NCBI GenBank assembly: GCA_965287045.1
Contig: OZ336878.1
Span: 15,128,001 to 15,192,000 of the forward strand
Length of the DNA stretch: 64,000 bases
Direction of reading: 5' to 3'
From: Carcharhinus amblyrhynchos
Lineage: Eukaryota
Below, piece after piece: positions 21,201 through 27,200 of this stretch. Every line of letters begins with the position of its first letter. The first letter of the stretch is position 1. Made by a program: the position numbers.

Positions 21201-24200
21201 GTATTCTGCACATAAAATAAGAGCAAATAAAGATGTGAAAACTCAGGTGAGGTATCCAGGAGTAGAGTGCCACAAAAGACCAGTGTCCCAGGCAAAGGAC
21301 AGGAAGAGGTCTCAAAGGAAGAGTCCCAGAAAGGCGACAGGGACAGGAAACAGTCCCAGTTCATTTAAAATGAGAGGAGCAGAGACACAGGCTCCCAATA
21401 GCAAAAGAGCTCTGGGATGCAGACTTTAAATGAATAAGACAGCCAAAGATGATCCCAATTCTACACTGCAAGCCTTTAGAACAAAAGTACACATTTAAGT
21501 GGCCACGTCCTGCTCAGGGCAGCTGAAAATCTAAAGTTGTGCTTGTTTATTAGTGTCTAAGTGTGCACTCAGAAATTCAGGGGAGCAGAATCTCAGGAGA
21601 CAAGATCTGAAAACTGCAAATTGGTCCATTGATGATGCTGCCTGAATTACGGCATTGATGAGGGCTCAGGGGAAGCCTTAAAGATCCAAGAACGTAGCCA
21701 AAGTTTGGTGACCCCATGTTGCAGGCCATTAAGGCAAAGGTACCCCTTTTGAGCAATAGTATTCTACTTCGTATGACCTAGGAGTTGAATCTGTGTTTGT
21801 GGGTTGGTGCTCGAGTGCAGATTTTGGAATCCAGGGAATTGAGACTAAAACCCTGTGAGGTGGACATTGTTGATGCTGTCAAGTTGGAGTGGCTTTGTGA
21901 GAATTGTACGGTTAGGTCTTTAAAAGGTGAAGGCTGGAACCTCTCATAATAGAGACGGAGTTTCTATGAGATTGGTTTACTTAGCGTTACTGACATCTGG
22001 GTGGGTTGTTGATAATTTGCGGACTCTGTCTTGATTGCATCTGTCATTTATTGTGGAATGCATTCAGCCATAGTTTACCTAATTATCCTTCCCGGAATGT
22101 TCAAGAATGTTCATATATCTTTGTGGTTTCTTTTTTTCCTGACCCCATATAGTCAAGTTTATTTTTGCTTTTTTAAAACCAGTGGAATCTTTTGGCTTTA
22201 TTCCATGAGTAAGTGTCTTGAATCTCAATCTGCATCTACTTTAAACAAAAAATTATGGTCCCTAACCAGATCTTAGCAACAGTTTGGAGGTTTGGCCAAG
22301 GATCATAATCCTTTACTATATATTGCCTCTTCTCATTCTTCTGACCAAAATCCATTTCTTCACACCTCTCAGCATTAAATTTTATCAAGTATGTGTGCCC
22401 ATTCTATCGGACCGTCTATGGTCTCCTGAAGTCTGTCACCCCCCTCAGTTCACGATGTCCCCAAGTTTTATGTCATCTGCAAATTTTGAAATTGTGTCGT
22501 GCCGACATACCGAAGTCATTAATATAACAAGCAATGAATCTGGTACCAATCCATGGTTAACTCTACAATCTATACCACCCTCCAGGTCAAAAATATGCTA
22601 TCACTATTTCCTGTCACTTATCCAATTCTACATCCGTGCTCCCACCATCCCTTTTAGTCCATGAACATCAACTTTGTTGGCAAGTCTACATGATCTTTCA
22701 AATGACATTTGAAGTTCCATGTACATCATAGCAACCACATAACCCTCATCAGCACTCTCTACCTCTCGGAAAGCTCAGGTTAAACACAACGTTCCCTTGA
22801 CAAATCCATGCTAGGTTTTCCTTATAATGCACTATCCATTACCTTTGACATTTAATATCATTTTACAGACAGCAAAATAATTGGTTGGGACATGCACGCA
22901 CGTTTTGGAATTATGATTTCAAAGAGAAAAAGAAGAAGTTTTTTTTGAAGAGCCAGAGAAATTCATTACAGAATTAGTCCATCACTAAAAATCAAATTAT
23001 ACCTCAATCACTGTTTAACATTCCAATGGCTTTGAAAATGAAACAAACTCTTTATAAGGGGAAGTTCTCATCATTTCAATTTCTGGCTGGATTTCTGCCT
23101 TTAACTGTGCATACATAGACGCTAGGAATTGTTGTCAGTTTCAAGCATGACAACGAACACTGAGTTTCTCTATCATCACCAATAGCAAAATCCAAGCCAT
23201 TAAAGAAACATCTATCCCATGGGCAAAGTAACTTATGTTCCTACAAAAAAGTTTATTTATTACAAGTAAGGTTTACATTAACACTGCAATGAAGTTACTG
23301 TGAAGTTCCCCTAGTTGCCACACTCCAGCACCATTTTGGATTAATGCACCTAACCAGCACATCTTTCAGATTGTGGGAGGAAACGCATGCAGAAACAGGA
23401 AAAAACCTCTGCACACAAGACAGTGCAAATATGGGCCAAATTACTTTCAAGTAAATCAAATCCAAAAGGCAATGAAGTTTAATTATGCTAAAAGGTTTTA
23501 AATCATAGATTCAGCTTCACAAGATTCTTCCCAACTTCTGATTATAAACTAGAAAAAAAACTGTTCCATACACCATATAATAGCTTTCCACCACAGTGTA
23601 ATGTGTGAATGTTTATGTTAATCTTTGCAGGTCATTGCATCACGTCTGAACCAATACAACTTTGATAGATGTGCACAACTGCCAAGTCTTTGTATCATTT
23701 TTGGTTGAATAATTTGGGCATTCCTTACTTCTGCAACTTTGCTCGCTTACCAAAGTGAAGCGTCTATGGATAGTTTGAGTCTAGGGTGCACTCTCATGGC
23801 AATCAAGGAAGTTTTACAAGGACACTAAAGGCTTCACTTAGAGGAATTTGAGTCCTGAGAGAAGCTAGCTCAGGATCATTACACCTAGTACAAGCAATTT
23901 TTTTTTGAAAAAAGTATGGCCTCCTTCAAAAGTATGCACATTTCAGAGGAAAAGGGAAACTCAGGCAGAGCAAAACACAAGAAATCCCAAGCCAGTAACT
24001 CACCTAAAACTCAAAATCTGTGATATCCTACTTGTAGCAGAACTTTCCCAGCACATATCAGCATTGGCTATCTACCTATCAGAACCTTATCAAACACCCC
24101 AGTTACAGGCGTGGGATTTTTTAAAAAAATTGCTTGTACTAGGTGTAATGATCCCAAGCTAGCTTCTCTCAGGACTCAAATTCCTCTAAGTGAAGCCTTT

Positions 24201-27200
24201 AGTGTCCTTGTAAAACTTCCTTGATTGCCATGAGAGTGCACCCTAGGCTCAAGCTATCCATAGACGATTGACTTTGGTAAGTGAGCAAAGTTACAGAAGT
24301 AAGGAATGCCCAAATTATTCAACTAAAAATGATACAGATTTGGCAGTTGTGCATACCTATCAAAGTTGTTTTGGTTTAGACCTGATGCAATAACCTGCAA
24401 AGATTCACATAAACATTCACACATTACTAATGGAAAGCTATTTTATGATGTATAGAACAGTTCTTTCTAGTTCTCTATAATCAGAAGTTGGGAAGAATCT
24501 TGGTCATTTTCACCTTGAAGAACTTTGCTATCAACGTTCATGAAGCAAATCAGTTAATTTAGCTAAATGGTGAAATTGTGCATTATTCATGGAAGCAATC
24601 CAGCTCGCAACTTTTAATGACAAGATTAGAATTTTAACTAAATATTAGCTGAAAGAGCTACAAAATTGCACACTAAGGAAGTGTGCAAGACTTGTATTGG
24701 AAACCAATCATCATTGGGGCTTTTAAATGAGTATTTGCCCAACTCTCTGGCCAAACATTGCTTGCAAATATTTGAAGTATTCTATGGTGAATGTAATTGT
24801 GATTACTTCATCAACTACAAACAAGGTGCCACATCAAGCAGGTGAAGTATCCCTAGTTGGCTTCAAAAAGAATCTTGCTCTAGTAAGTGAAATTCAAGTA
24901 GATCAGACCAGACAACGCACATAAAATGAAACATTGAAAAGCAATGCCGATCCAAGACAGGTTGAATTTGTTCCACAATACAATGCAGAATGACCAAGAA
25001 TTCTCTCTCAACCATCAGACAAATTAAACAGTCATTCATTCATTTTGTGGGACCTTGCTCTGTACAACTGGAGGCTGCATTTGCCTATATGACAGGTACT
25101 GCAATTCAAAGACAGATCATTGGATAGGTGTAAACAGACTTAAGAGAACTGCAAGTTTGCTCTAAACTGTTAAGGGCATTCTGAAACATTATCAAGCACA
25201 CATTTTGGATCAAACCAGTAAAAATAAACAGCATGCAGCACCCATTCTCAGCAACCAAGACAAGAGAGTTTCACACCTTTGTTTTTGATTTGATGTTCTA
25301 TAATCTCAATTAAAACTTGGAAACGACATCATTCTGCAGCCATTGTCATGCAACCATCTTAATACTGGTTGCAAACTTTTTAGCACTCTGCATTTCAAGG
25401 ACCAAATTATAAATTATTGTTGATTAAGTAAACCAAAAAGAAAATAGCATCAATGCATAATTTACAACAGTTTAGAAATTGTAAGGACTTAAAAACAAAT
25501 TTCTGACAAGATGCTTCATATCTTCTAGACAGATCCATTTGTAGGTTAATGGCTGTTCAATGGCATTTTAAAAATAACTTCAATTGTCTTACATAAAAGA
25601 ATCCAAAGATTAATGGTATTGTACATCACTGGACTTTGAATCTACTCTTTGGTGACAAAAGCCACCAAACACCATGCAGATTAAATATTCGGGCAAATTT
25701 CAAGACCAGCAGTCCATGCTGGAGGCAGAGTAGGAGCTTTGAAGTACACTGCAGTTCCTTTCAATTCCTACAACACTGCTGGCATGCTTTCCCCCATTTT
25801 GCCTAGAATCAGTGCCAGTGTTCACTTTAAGTGTGTGTGTGTGTGTGCAGAGTTGCAGTGCAGAACCTATTCAAAAAAATAAAGAACTGCACAAAGCTCA
25901 AAGAAATTACACTGGGGGAGAGGAAAAAAGGGGAAACCCAACTTTTCTGCTGTTGCTGTTGGGGGGTGGTGGGAAAGAGAATGATAAAACCCACCCAAGA
26001 CTTGGAGGGAGGGGGGGAGCAAGAATTGGTCGGAGATGTCATGTTGCGTGGCAGAGGAAGACATGGAAGCAGAGTGTGCTGTGCCGTCCCGCCTGAATTG
26101 CCTGTCACGCTGTCGAGCTGGCTGGGTCCAAACCACAACCCAACAGCCAACAAGCTGGAGAGAGGGGAAGGAATTGGGAATGGATGGCAGGCAAAATACA
26201 AGACAAAACTCCAACCGATCACCACCCACCTCAACATTACTATCACCACACAAACACCTCCCCCCCGCCACCACACCACACCACACTCTCGGTGAGCTTT
26301 ACTGCGACACGCAACGTACCTTTATTTATTTTTTGGCACAAGGGAAGTGCGCGGATGAGCGGCGGGCCGGGTTTTATTGTCAGCGCTCGTCCTCCATCCA
26401 TCCAGCCACCGCCGCCATTTTGCTCGCTATTGTGCCCGGAGATGGTTGAAGGCGGGAGGGAGTGAGTGAGGGGGTGGGAGGAGAGAGTGAGTGAAAGAGG
26501 AAGGGGGGGAGTGAGTGATACAGAGGAGAGAGAGAGAGAGAAAGATGGTGGTGGTGGTGTGGAAAGAATGGGCAGCGAGGGGCCGGCCGTCGGGATGCCC
26601 TCCTCTCCGGCACCGGCCGGGCTGGGTGGTTGATTGGAAAGTGGGGTCCGGGGAGGGGGGGGGCGCCGGTTTCCTGTCACAAATGCGGGAGGCGGAATCC
26701 TTTGTCCCCCGCCAAGTGCGTGCTTTCCAAACACCCCCCCCCCCTCCGGCCGCCAGTGGAAGCGCCCTCCCTCGCGGACGCCTTCTCTCGGCCGTTTGTT
26801 TTTAAAGTGGCAGCTGGGGAAGCATGGAAATGGTGGCGGCTTCCTGACCAGGTGAGAGAGAGAGAGAGTAGAGAGAACAGAATCCTCTGGCTTTCCACTG
26901 GTGCACACCCACGTTTATACACACACACACACACAATACCCCTGGGGGCTTGGGCTTTTTCTGTCCAAAGGAAAATGGCAATAAACACTACCAAATCAGG
27001 TGTCAAAATGGAAGGCAACTCGACGCTGCGAGGAAAATAATGTGTGGTGGCCAACTGGGCCAGTTCCCCATGGGACGCTGAGGGGAACCAGGCCTTCAGG
27101 AGAAGAGGCCACATCAAATTTTAAGCTCATACATAATAAACATCCAGCTCTGGCATGACCCGCGTTCTTTTAAACAAATCAATCTGACATCATTACACAT

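What the first reader, a model, noticed from the sequence alone, without database searches (positions are those of the whole stretch)
23520..24501. ~385-bp-arm inverted repeat of apparently non-TE sequence in intron 1, most similar next to the loop
Seen: a long, near-perfect fold-back about 2 kb downstream of the minus-strand first exon. The inner ~90 bp (about 24156-24245) match perfectly, while the outer parts have mismatches and indels. There is no TSD and no recognisable TE. Mismatches favour G:U pairs on neither strand. Inference: this is either arm-to-arm gene conversion near the loop or selection for a long pre-mRNA duplex (ADAR substrate, endo-siRNA source or splicing control). A foldback transposon would be expected to conserve its outer ends.
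Basis: partly seen in the sequence, partly recalled or inferred. Interest (0 to 1): 0.68.

Follow-up and report, generated by a model that had tools for sequence, protein, structure and literature searches.

The report
Decaying fold-back repeat in shark DNA
A real, roughly 1-kb stretch whose two halves mirror each other lies beside a CpG island in a shark-type genome; it looks like an old, neutrally decaying inverted duplication or fold-back transposon, not a structure kept by selection, so it is fairly ordinary.

Summary
The inverted repeat is real. The arms are 23520-23913 and 24117-24502, around a 203-nt spacer. 354 of 388 aligned columns are identical and the RNA fold z-score is -51 to -59.

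Two of its points fail:
- The outermost 27 bp are also perfect.
- A 10-bp direct repeat abuts both ends in exact register, 7 of 10 matching (chance 0.5-1.5%).

The differences look neutral: 17 transitions, 6 transversions, 4 indels, and G:U-compatible changes 7 versus 10 by strand (p=0.63). Nothing supports selection for an RNA duplex. The identity gradient is marginal (P about 0.01-0.02, post hoc).

The arms have no other copy in the window, no coding frame, no Rfam match and no subrepeats. A second, unrelated fold-back (2428-2711 / 3061-3345) is demonstrably a local inverted copy inserted into a neighbouring LINE at a microhomology.

Best reading: local inverted duplication by template switching, then neutral decay, perhaps with one short conversion tract (0.45). 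Main rival: a long-TIR Mutator/Foldback-like element (0.35).

Genome copy number, orthologues and transcription could not be tested. 'Intron 1' is unverified.

The parts
23520..23913 (+). Left arm of the fold-back (394 nt, including the inner T9-G-A6 run)
   Evidence: pairs with 24117-24502; 354 of 388 columns identical over 23520-23904
23914..24116 (.). Spacer (loop), 203 nt. It contains a fragment of an old interspersed repeat.
   Evidence: nhmmer aligns loop positions 20-192 to window 17779-17610 (- strand), E=9.7e-6, 21.4 bits. No arm homology was found at that other site.
24117..24502 (-). Right arm (386 nt), the reverse complement of the left arm
23781..23870 (+). Perfect 90-bp block, left copy
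   Evidence: identical to the reverse complement of 24157-24246; not extendable by one base either way
24157..24246 (-). Perfect 90-bp block, right copy
23520..23546 (+). Outermost 27 bp of the left arm, perfectly complementary to 24476-24502
   Evidence: (I4)
24476..24502 (-). Outermost 27 bp of the right arm
23510..23519 (+). Candidate degraded target-site duplication, left copy (TTCAGCTTCA)
   Evidence: 7 of 10 matches with 24503-24512 in exact register; chance 0.5% (k=10), 1.5% over all k tried
24503..24512 (+). Candidate degraded target-site duplication, right copy (GTCATTTTCA)
17610..17779 (-). Distant relative of the spacer sequence, without the arms
2428..2711 (+). Second fold-back, left arm. 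It is an inverted copy of 3061-3345. Together with about 24-27 nt of filler it is inserted into a LINE copy.
   Evidence: 284/285 nt, 95.1% identical; window 2343-2432 matches 6363-6274 and 2739-2867 matches 6265-6140, so about 306 nt stand where another copy of that LINE has 8 nt.
3061..3345 (-). Second fold-back, right arm. This is the source copy and is part of a longer CR1-like LINE fragment.
   Evidence: tblastn of the RT ORF 35035-36096, residues 162-249, to 3274-3020, which runs past the arm's inner end
26001..27000 (.).
   Evidence: GC 0.56-0.59 and CpG o/e 0.56-0.61, against mostly 0.05-0.5 elsewhere; donor-like AAG|GT on the - strand (GT at 26319-26318) and CAG|GTGAGA on the + strand (GT at 26852-26853).

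Best explanation
The fold-back is an old local inverted duplication of about 390 bp of ordinary non-coding DNA. During replication or break repair the growing strand switched to the complementary template a few hundred bases away. It copied about 390 nt backwards and switched back, leaving two mirror-image arms around about 203 nt of pre-existing sequence.

Since then both arms have decayed neutrally (K2P 0.064). The nearly identical inner 125 bp are best explained by one later short arm-to-arm conversion or hairpin-templated repair tract, or by chance.

If the region is transcribed, the RNA would form a duplex of about 385 bp. That would be a by-product, not something selection has kept.

Shown: the structure, its uniqueness within the window, its neutral-looking differences, and the same process at a second locus in the window. 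Inferred: that the target arose by that process, and the conversion tract.
For: 1. The arms and spacer are non-coding. Each of the six frames has 16-24 stops and the longest open stretch is 97 aa.
2. The arms have no relative elsewhere in the 64-kb window. The next blastn hits at word size 7 are at most 23 nt with E>=0.24. The next nhmmer profile hit has E=0.99. By contrast, SINE and LINE families recur many times.
3. No hallmark of a known element was found:
   - no tandem subrepeats in the arms;
   - no excess of repeated 7-10-mers;
   - no Rfam family in 23000-25000 at E<=1 except one chance-level hit outside the repeat;
   - no tRNA.
4. The spacer is ordinary old-repeat DNA. Its only relative in the window lacks the arms.
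5. The differences fit decay from identical copies: 17 transitions, 6 transversions and 4 indels, with no strand bias of wobble pairs.
6. There is a precedent in the same window, a second fold-back 2428-2711 / 3061-3345.
   - Its geometry is like the target's: 284-nt arms, a 349-nt spacer, K2P 0.048.
   - It shares no sequence with the target.
   - Its left arm interrupts a LINE copy that is uninterrupted in another copy at 6140-6363.
   - Its right arm belongs to a longer LINE fragment.
   - The outer junction lies in an 11-of-13 microhomology.
   - The inner junction carries about 24-27 nt of filler.
   - It has no TSD.
Against: - A 10-bp direct repeat abuts both ends in register (7 of 10; chance 0.5-1.5%). 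Template switching does not predict this, but a transposon insertion does.
- The outermost 27 bp are perfect (P about 0.14 under uniform decay, my estimate from 27 events in 388 columns). This also fits conserved transposon termini.
- For the target itself I have no empty site, no polarity (which arm is the copy) and no clear junction microhomology. There is only an A/T-run palindrome at both inner ends.
- Palindromic interspersed repeats do exist in this window, so hairpin-shaped mobile elements occur in this genome.
- Absence of other copies in 64 kb says little about a genome of several Gb.
Confidence: 0.45

Rival explanations
1. A non-autonomous DNA transposon with very long terminal inverted repeats (Mutator/Foldback-like), inserted as one 983-bp unit, duplicating a 10-bp target and since decaying.
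For: - Sharp ends with 27 perfect terminal base pairs.
- A 10-bp direct repeat abutting both ends in exact register, 7 of 10 (chance 0.5% for k=10, 1.5% over all k tried; 0.4-1.3% allowing a shift of one base).
- About 1 kb long with no coding capacity.
- Long TIRs with 8-10-bp TSDs, and a mean identity of 93.15% between the two TIRs of one element, are reported for the Mutator/Foldback family Tm1 (PMC3169594, passages read).
- A smaller palindromic interspersed family is present in the window.
Against: - The TSD is poor. Three mismatches in 10 flanking sites sit beside 0 in the 27 terminal sites of the repeat, which is itself unlikely if both decayed together (hypergeometric 0.015, or 0.068 if GC>TT is one event).
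- No composite or tandem subrepeats of the Foldback type.
- No second copy of the arms in the window.
- The spacer's only relative lacks the arms.
- The passages I read in the whale-shark genome paper name Tc/Mariner, hAT, PIF-Harbinger, Helitron and Novosib as its DNA transposons, not Mutator (PMC8455134). Its supplementary tables were not seen.
Confidence: 0.35
2. Two independent insertions of the same interspersed repeat of about 390 bp, landing 203 bp apart in opposite orientation, as with inverted SINE pairs.
For: Both arms begin and end at the same points of the unit, as full-length copies would. Inverted SINE and LINE pairs are common in this window.
Against: - Neither arm alone has a flanking duplication. 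The test gave 0 hits for the left arm and only T-run matches for the right arm.
- No third copy exists in 64 kb, so two copies within 203 bp by chance is very unlikely.
- No poly(A), tRNA-like or 5S-like head.
Confidence: 0.04
3. The hairpin is kept by selection as a long double-stranded RNA, for example as an ADAR substrate, an endo-siRNA source or a splicing switch. That selection is why the inner stem stays perfect.
For: - Very stable predicted fold on either strand (-653 and -638 kcal/mol, z -51 and -59).
- Inner 125 columns carry 3 of 27 difference events (P=0.009, post hoc).
- The repeat lies 1.8 kb from a CpG-island-like stretch.
Against: - 6 transversions and 4 indels break pairing, and transitions show no preference for the wobble-compatible strand (10 versus 7, p=0.63).
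- No Rfam family.
- Transcription and its direction are unknown, since donor-like sites exist on both strands of the island.
- Any recent inverted duplication gives the same extreme z-score.
Confidence: 0.05
4. Assembly artefact, such as a chimeric fold-back read.
For: Fold-back chimeras are a known failure of long-read libraries.
Against: The arms differ by 23 substitutions with a biological 17:6 transition bias, and they enclose a 203-nt unique spacer. An artefact would give near-identical arms with no spacer, or only a very short one.
Confidence: 0.02

Closest known systems
Replication-based template-switch rearrangements (FoSTeS/MMBIR; short-range template switching that creates and extends inverted repeats)
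   Same: The product is an inverted copy placed a few hundred bases from its source. Junctions show microhomology and templated filler and there is no TSD. The second fold-back in this window shows all of this.

Abstracts seen in search listings: PMC2621351, PMC7954356; PMC8794818 and PMC13100816. The last states that switching between imperfect arms can homogenise and expand them.
   Different: As I recall it (not taken from these papers), described short-range events are mostly tens of bases and clinical events are kilobases to megabases. Here the copied tract is about 285-390 nt. For the target itself the junction evidence is missing.
Mutator/Foldback-type long-TIR DNA transposons (such as Tm1 of root-knot nematodes, Drosophila FB)
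   Same: Long inverted arms, a short non-coding middle, 8-10-bp target duplications, and about 93% identity between the two TIRs of one element (PMC3169594, passages).
   Different: No composite subrepeats in the arms. The TSD is only 7 of 10. No other copies or transposase partner were seen. The superfamily is not named among whale-shark DNA transposons in the passages read.
Inverted SINE pairs in introns that form long dsRNA edited by ADAR (human inverted Alu pairs; recalled, not checked here)
   Same: If transcribed, the two arms would pair into a duplex of several hundred base pairs.
   Different: The arms are not copies of an abundant SINE. Transcription and editing are untested.
Large sex-chromosome palindromes homogenised by arm-to-arm gene conversion
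   Same: Arm-to-arm conversion is the proposed cause of the near-identical inner part. Abstracts seen in the listing: PMC8600007, PMC8327919, PMC3723533.
   Different: Those abstracts give arms above 10 kb (10.1101/800185) and arm identity above 99%. Here the arms are 0.39 kb and 91% identical, with at most one short tract.

Membership tests
Local inverted duplication by template switching | Two inverted copies around a spacer of pre-existing local sequence | tested here: met
   Arms are 23520-23913 / 24117-24502. The spacer is related to an old repeat found elsewhere without the arms.
Local inverted duplication by template switching | One arm is an insertion relative to an empty site (a paralogous or orthologous copy) | not testable with these tools
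   The flanks 23443-23519 and 24503-25400 are unique in the window and no shark genome is available. The feature is met for the second fold-back.
Local inverted duplication by template switching | Junction microhomology or templated filler, and no target-site duplication | tested here: inconclusive
   For the target there is only an A/T-run palindrome at both inner ends, plus a 7-of-10 flanking direct repeat that argues the other way. For the second fold-back there is an 11-of-13 microhomology, about 24-27 nt of filler and no TSD.
Mutator/Foldback-like long-TIR DNA transposon | Long terminal inverted repeats with conserved termini | tested here: met
   Arms of 385-394 nt, 91% identical, with the outermost 27 bp perfect.
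Mutator/Foldback-like long-TIR DNA transposon | 8-10-bp target-site duplication | tested here: inconclusive
   A 10-mer in exact register matches 7 of 10. Chance is 0.5% (k=10) to 1.5% (all k).
Mutator/Foldback-like long-TIR DNA transposon | Composite TIRs built of internal or tandem subrepeats (Foldback type) | tested here: not met
   TRF finds nothing in the arms except a 23-nt array of period 12, 1.9 copies, at 24399-24421. Repeated 7-10-mers are at the shuffled expectation.
Mutator/Foldback-like long-TIR DNA transposon | Multiple dispersed copies, and an autonomous partner encoding a transposase | not testable with these tools
   There are 0 other copies in the 64-kb window. The only open nucleotide collection holds bacterial and archaeal genomes, and it gave 0 hits with the 24-nt terminus.
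MITE | Short (a few hundred bp), high copy number, short TIRs with a TSD | tested here: inconclusive
   At 983 bp the element is long for a MITE. Copy number is unknown. A different, smaller palindromic family is present at four places in the window.
Selected hairpin RNA locus (hpRNA/endo-siRNA source or ADAR target) | Pairing preserved by selection (compensatory or wobble-biased changes on the transcribed strand) | tested here: not met
   6 transversions and 4 indels break pairing. Wobble-compatible transitions are 7 (+ strand) versus 10 (- strand), p=0.63.
Selected hairpin RNA locus (hpRNA/endo-siRNA source or ADAR target) | Transcribed, with small RNAs or clustered A-to-G editing | not testable with these tools
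   No expression data are available. The direction of transcription from the CpG island is open.
Palindrome maintained by arm-to-arm gene conversion | Arms kept near-identical along their length | tested here: not met
   Overall identity is 91%. Only the inner 125 columns are near-perfect, and that gradient is marginal.

The most novel reading that the evidence does not exclude
The inner stem of about 125 bp is actively kept perfect because the locus is a shark long-hairpin RNA gene, embedded in a transcript that starts at the neighbouring CpG island. It would act as an endo-siRNA source or a dedicated ADAR/dsRNA-sensor substrate. This would be a vertebrate counterpart of the Drosophila hpRNA loci, born from an inverted duplication.
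Probability: 0.04. Interest if true: 0.6.

Novelty: new member of a known kind. Interest (0 to 1): 0.2.

Why it matters
On the evidence this is an ordinary product of genome turnover.

- **General value.** It is a clean example of how a hairpin-forming stretch several hundred base pairs long can arise from non-repetitive DNA. It shows that a 'fold-back' should not be called functional, or called non-transposon, from the identity pattern alone.
- **Two fold-backs in one window.** One 64-kb window holds two unrelated fold-backs of similar size and age, and one of them is demonstrably a microhomology-mediated inverted insertion. If that density held genome-wide, medium-range template switching would be a noticeable source of structural change and of potential dsRNA in the large introns of elasmobranchs.
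- **If it is a transposon.** If the target instead proves to be a Mutator/Foldback-like element, that superfamily is not named among the DNA transposons in the whale-shark genome paper passages I read.

Tried and rejected
- **Pfam on the six frames of the element.** The call errored because the first frame submitted has 16 stop codons. I counted stops in all six frames myself instead (16-24 each).
- **Protein database as a proxy for copy number.** A 48-aa open frame from the right arm found no candidate, not even itself. A control with the window's CR1-type RT ORF found thousands of relatives, including annotated shark proteins. The database therefore holds shark gene models but not raw ORFs, and the blank is uninformative.
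- **Scan of genome contigs with the 24-nt outer terminus.** It gave 0 hits. The collection is bacterial and archaeal, so this says nothing about shark copy number. The permitted second scan was not used.
- **Cluster of 15-20-nt blastn hits at 30356-31056.** It looked like a diverged second copy, but the nhmmer arm profile gives only E=14 there. Rejected as chance.
- **Spacer match at 28701-28849.** E=0.23. Rejected.
- **Order of the spacer relative and a neighbouring SINE-tail module.** The order at 17542-17780 differs from the order at the target, so it gave no empty-site test.
- **Other scans that found nothing in the element.** These were a TSD for each arm alone, subterminal motifs, tandem repeats, Rfam and tRNA.
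- **Pfam on ten long ORFs of the window.** It found only an integrase-core fragment and a LINE endonuclease fragment: no host exon and no DNA transposase.

Not done or not available:
- The N run 11397-11581 was left as it is.
- Supplementary tables of the papers were closed, notably the whale-shark repeat tables, which may list further DNA transposon superfamilies.

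
Full report
**What is there**

The window is CpG-depleted vertebrate DNA. Most 500-nt windows have a CpG o/e of 0.05-0.5.
- It is full of CR1-type LINE fragments and tRNA-related SINE copies.
- I searched with its longest RT ORF (35035-36096). Of 8000 candidates scored, 7912 had E<=0.001, and 120 were listed.
- The best named eukaryotic hits are sharks (Stegostoma tigrinum 69%, Chiloscyllium punctatum 68%). Rays and skates follow at 54-61%. Most other rows are bird and turtle CR1 elements at 42-56%.
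- I therefore take the window for an elasmobranch, not human.
- One N run (11397-11581) was left untouched.

**The repeat**

- The repeat finder gives four collinear pieces.
- A global alignment of 23520-23904 with the reverse complement of 24123-24502 has 354 identical columns of 388, with 23 substitutions and 4 indels of 3, 2, 4 and 2 nt.
- blastn carries the homology through a T-run/A-run to 23520-23913 and 24117-24502 (E=1.6e-155). That leaves a 203-nt spacer.
- As RNA, either strand folds into one long hairpin (-653.3 and -637.9 kcal/mol; z -51 and -59 against 20 shuffles each).
- The perfect block is 23781-23870 / 24157-24246, exactly 90 bp.
- A CA/TG dinucleotide difference follows, then 32 more perfect pairs.

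- The outer ends are not degenerate. The outermost 27 bp pair perfectly.
- The flanks are not free of a direct repeat. TTCAGCTTCA (23510-23519) and GTCATTTTCA (24503-24512) abut the two ends in exact register with 7 of 10 matches.
- Among 200,000 random position pairs at the same spacing, this occurs in 0.5% for k=10, and in 1.5% over the family of lengths and thresholds I allowed.
- An earlier test allowing a shift of one base gave 0.4-1.3%.
- The match is weak. Three mismatches in 10 flanking sites beside none in 27 terminal sites is awkward if both decayed together (hypergeometric 0.015, or 0.068 if the adjacent GC>TT is one event).

**Is the pattern of differences special?**

- Of 27 difference events, 3 lie in the inner 125 columns (P=0.009).
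- The longest clean run is 90 columns (P=0.016).
- A KS test against uniform gives p=0.06 (100,000 permutations).
- These tests were chosen after seeing the data, so the gradient is suggestive only.
- The substitutions are 17 transitions and 6 transversions (K2P 0.064).
- Of the transitions, 7 would leave a G:U pair in a plus-strand RNA and 10 in a minus-strand RNA (p=0.63).
- The 6 transversions and 4 indels break pairing on either strand.
- This is what neutral decay looks like. It gives no sign that pairing is under selection.

**What the sequence is not**

- All six frames are closed, with 16-24 stops each.
- There are no tandem subrepeats in the arms and no excess of repeated 7-10-mers.
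- There is no tRNA.
- Rfam finds nothing within the repeat at E<=1.
- Window-wide, Rfam finds only a 5S-like sequence at 3611-3729.
- The arms have no other relative in the window by blastn at word size 7 or by an nhmmer profile of both arms (next hit E=0.99).
- The flanks 23443-23519 and 24503-25400 are unique too. A 5'-truncated SINE lies at about 23234-23442.
- The spacer does have one distant relative, 17610-17779 on the minus strand (E=9.7e-6), and no arm homology accompanies it.
- So the spacer looks like ordinary old-repeat DNA.

**A second fold-back gives a mechanism**

The window holds another fold-back: 2428-2711 / 3061-3345.
- Its arms are 284/285 nt and 95.1% identical, with 13 substitutions and 1 indel spread evenly.
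- The spacer is 349 nt and K2P is 0.048.
- Its sequence is unrelated to the target's.
- Its arms are an internal piece of a CR1-like RT, about residues 132-223 of the ORF at 35035-36096.
- The right arm belongs to a longer LINE fragment that continues past the arm's inner end.
- The left arm, with about 24-27 nt of filler, interrupts a different LINE. Window 2343-2432 aligns to 6363-6274 and 2739-2867 aligns to 6265-6140, so about 306 nt stand where the other copy has 8 nt.
- The outer junction lies in an 11-of-13 match between the LINE at the insertion site and the outer end of the source arm.
- There is no TSD.
- An internal LINE fragment cannot have arrived by retrotransposition, and a 95% identical copy with identical limits 349 nt away cannot be coincidence.

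This is a local inverted duplication of the microhomology-mediated template-switch kind. Abstracts of PMC2621351 and PMC7954356 were seen in the listing, and those of PMC8794818 and PMC13100816 in the listing.

**Weighing the origin of the target**

For a local inverted duplication:
- the proven precedent of like geometry and age 21 kb away;
- unique, featureless arms;
- an ordinary spacer whose relative lacks the arms;
- neutral decay.

For a long-TIR transposon:
- the perfect 27-bp termini;
- the 10-bp flanking repeat;
- the size and non-coding nature;
- the fact that Mutator/Foldback elements combine long TIRs (mean 93.15% identical within an element) with 8-10-bp TSDs (PMC3169594, passages);
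- a smaller palindromic interspersed family in the window (32046-32229, 61573-61812, and half copies at 16657-16744 and 62390-62477).

Against the transposon:
- the poor TSD and its tension with the perfect termini;
- the lack of Foldback-type subrepeats;
- the whale-shark paper passages, which name only Tc/Mariner, hAT, PIF-Harbinger, Helitron and Novosib among DNA transposons, with LINEs at 33% of the genome and 10.8% unclassified repeats (PMC8455134; its supplementary tables were not seen).

I put the local duplication at 0.45 and the transposon at 0.35. Two independent insertions of one repeat, a selected RNA hairpin and an assembly artefact are each at 0.05 or less. The artefact is unlikely because the arms differ by 23 substitutions with a transition bias and enclose a unique spacer.

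**The near-perfect inner part**

Under either origin, one short arm-to-arm conversion or hairpin-templated repair tract of about 100-150 bp, or chance, accounts for it. I could not test this further.

**Context**

- A CpG-island-like stretch lies at 26001-27000 (GC 0.56-0.59, CpG o/e 0.56-0.61), 1.8 kb from the repeat.
- The minus strand has a 12-codon ATG frame followed by AAG|GTACGT (GT at 26319-26318).
- The plus strand has CAG|GTGAGA (GT at 26852-26853). Both were read.
- I found no coding exon. Ten long ORFs gave only an integrase-core fragment and a LINE endonuclease fragment in Pfam.
- If only a plus-strand transcript exists, the repeat is upstream of it and not intronic.

**What stayed unchecked**

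- Genome copy number, orthologous loci, long-read support and transcription all stayed unchecked. No eukaryotic nucleotide collection or expression data were available.
- One scan of the bacterial/archaeal genome collection with the 24-nt terminus found nothing. That carries no weight for a shark genome.

**Verdict**

The fold-back is real and well described, but ordinary. It is most likely a neutrally decaying inverted duplication, and possibly a long-TIR transposon. There is no evidence for a selected RNA function.

Noticed in passing
window 2428-3345: A second fold-back, unrelated in sequence. Its 284/285-nt arms are 95.1% identical around a 349-nt spacer. The left arm plus about 24-27 nt of filler is an inverted copy of a CR1-like RT fragment, inserted into a neighbouring LINE at an 11-of-13 microhomology, without a TSD.
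   Followed up: yes
window 32046-32229, 61573-61812, 16657-16744, 62390-62477: A short interspersed family that is itself almost a perfect palindrome: 84-nt arms with a 1-nt spacer at 32057-32225, and 54-nt arms plus an inner 34-nt inverted pair at 61576-61812. Two half copies also occur. It looks like a MITE-like hairpin element, but its type was not determined and TSDs were not examined.
   Followed up: partly
window 3611-3729 (- strand): A full-length match to 5S rRNA (Rfam RF00001, 81.2 bits, model positions 1-120). It is a 5S gene, a pseudogene or the head of a 5S-derived SINE, and lies just beside the second fold-back.
   Followed up: no
window 50829-50943: One LINE copy carries an insertion of about 83 nt of a LINE 3'-tail-like sequence, flanked by a 15-nt direct repeat (13 of 15 identical). 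This is a clean example of a retroposition TSD in this genome. It lies a few bases from the site where the second fold-back's arm sits in the paralogous copy.
   Followed up: partly
protein search of window 35035-36096: Two of the closest named relatives of this shark CR1-type RT are labelled as bacterial proteins (Klebsiella pneumoniae 75%, Proteus mirabilis 64%). Both sit on contigs of about 1.6 kb. They are probably vertebrate DNA contaminating bacterial assemblies.
   Followed up: no
window 36379-36720 (+) and 46030-46805 (+): Pieces of LTR-retrotransposon genes. The first is an integrase-core fragment (Pfam rve, E=8.5e-7, below the curated cut-off). The second is a zinc-knuckle/protease-like ORF pair by eye, flanked by 145-nt direct repeats that are 93% identical (45744-45888 / 46895-47039).
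   Followed up: no
window 10998-11139: A 71-nt unit is duplicated in tandem at 99% identity, next to the N run at 11397-11581. The N run was left unfilled.
   Followed up: no
window 23871-23872 / 24155-24156: The only difference inside the inner stem is a dinucleotide that reads CA on the plus strand in both arms, that is, a 2-nt inversion relative to perfect symmetry. It could be two adjacent transitions or a tiny template-switch event.
   Followed up: no
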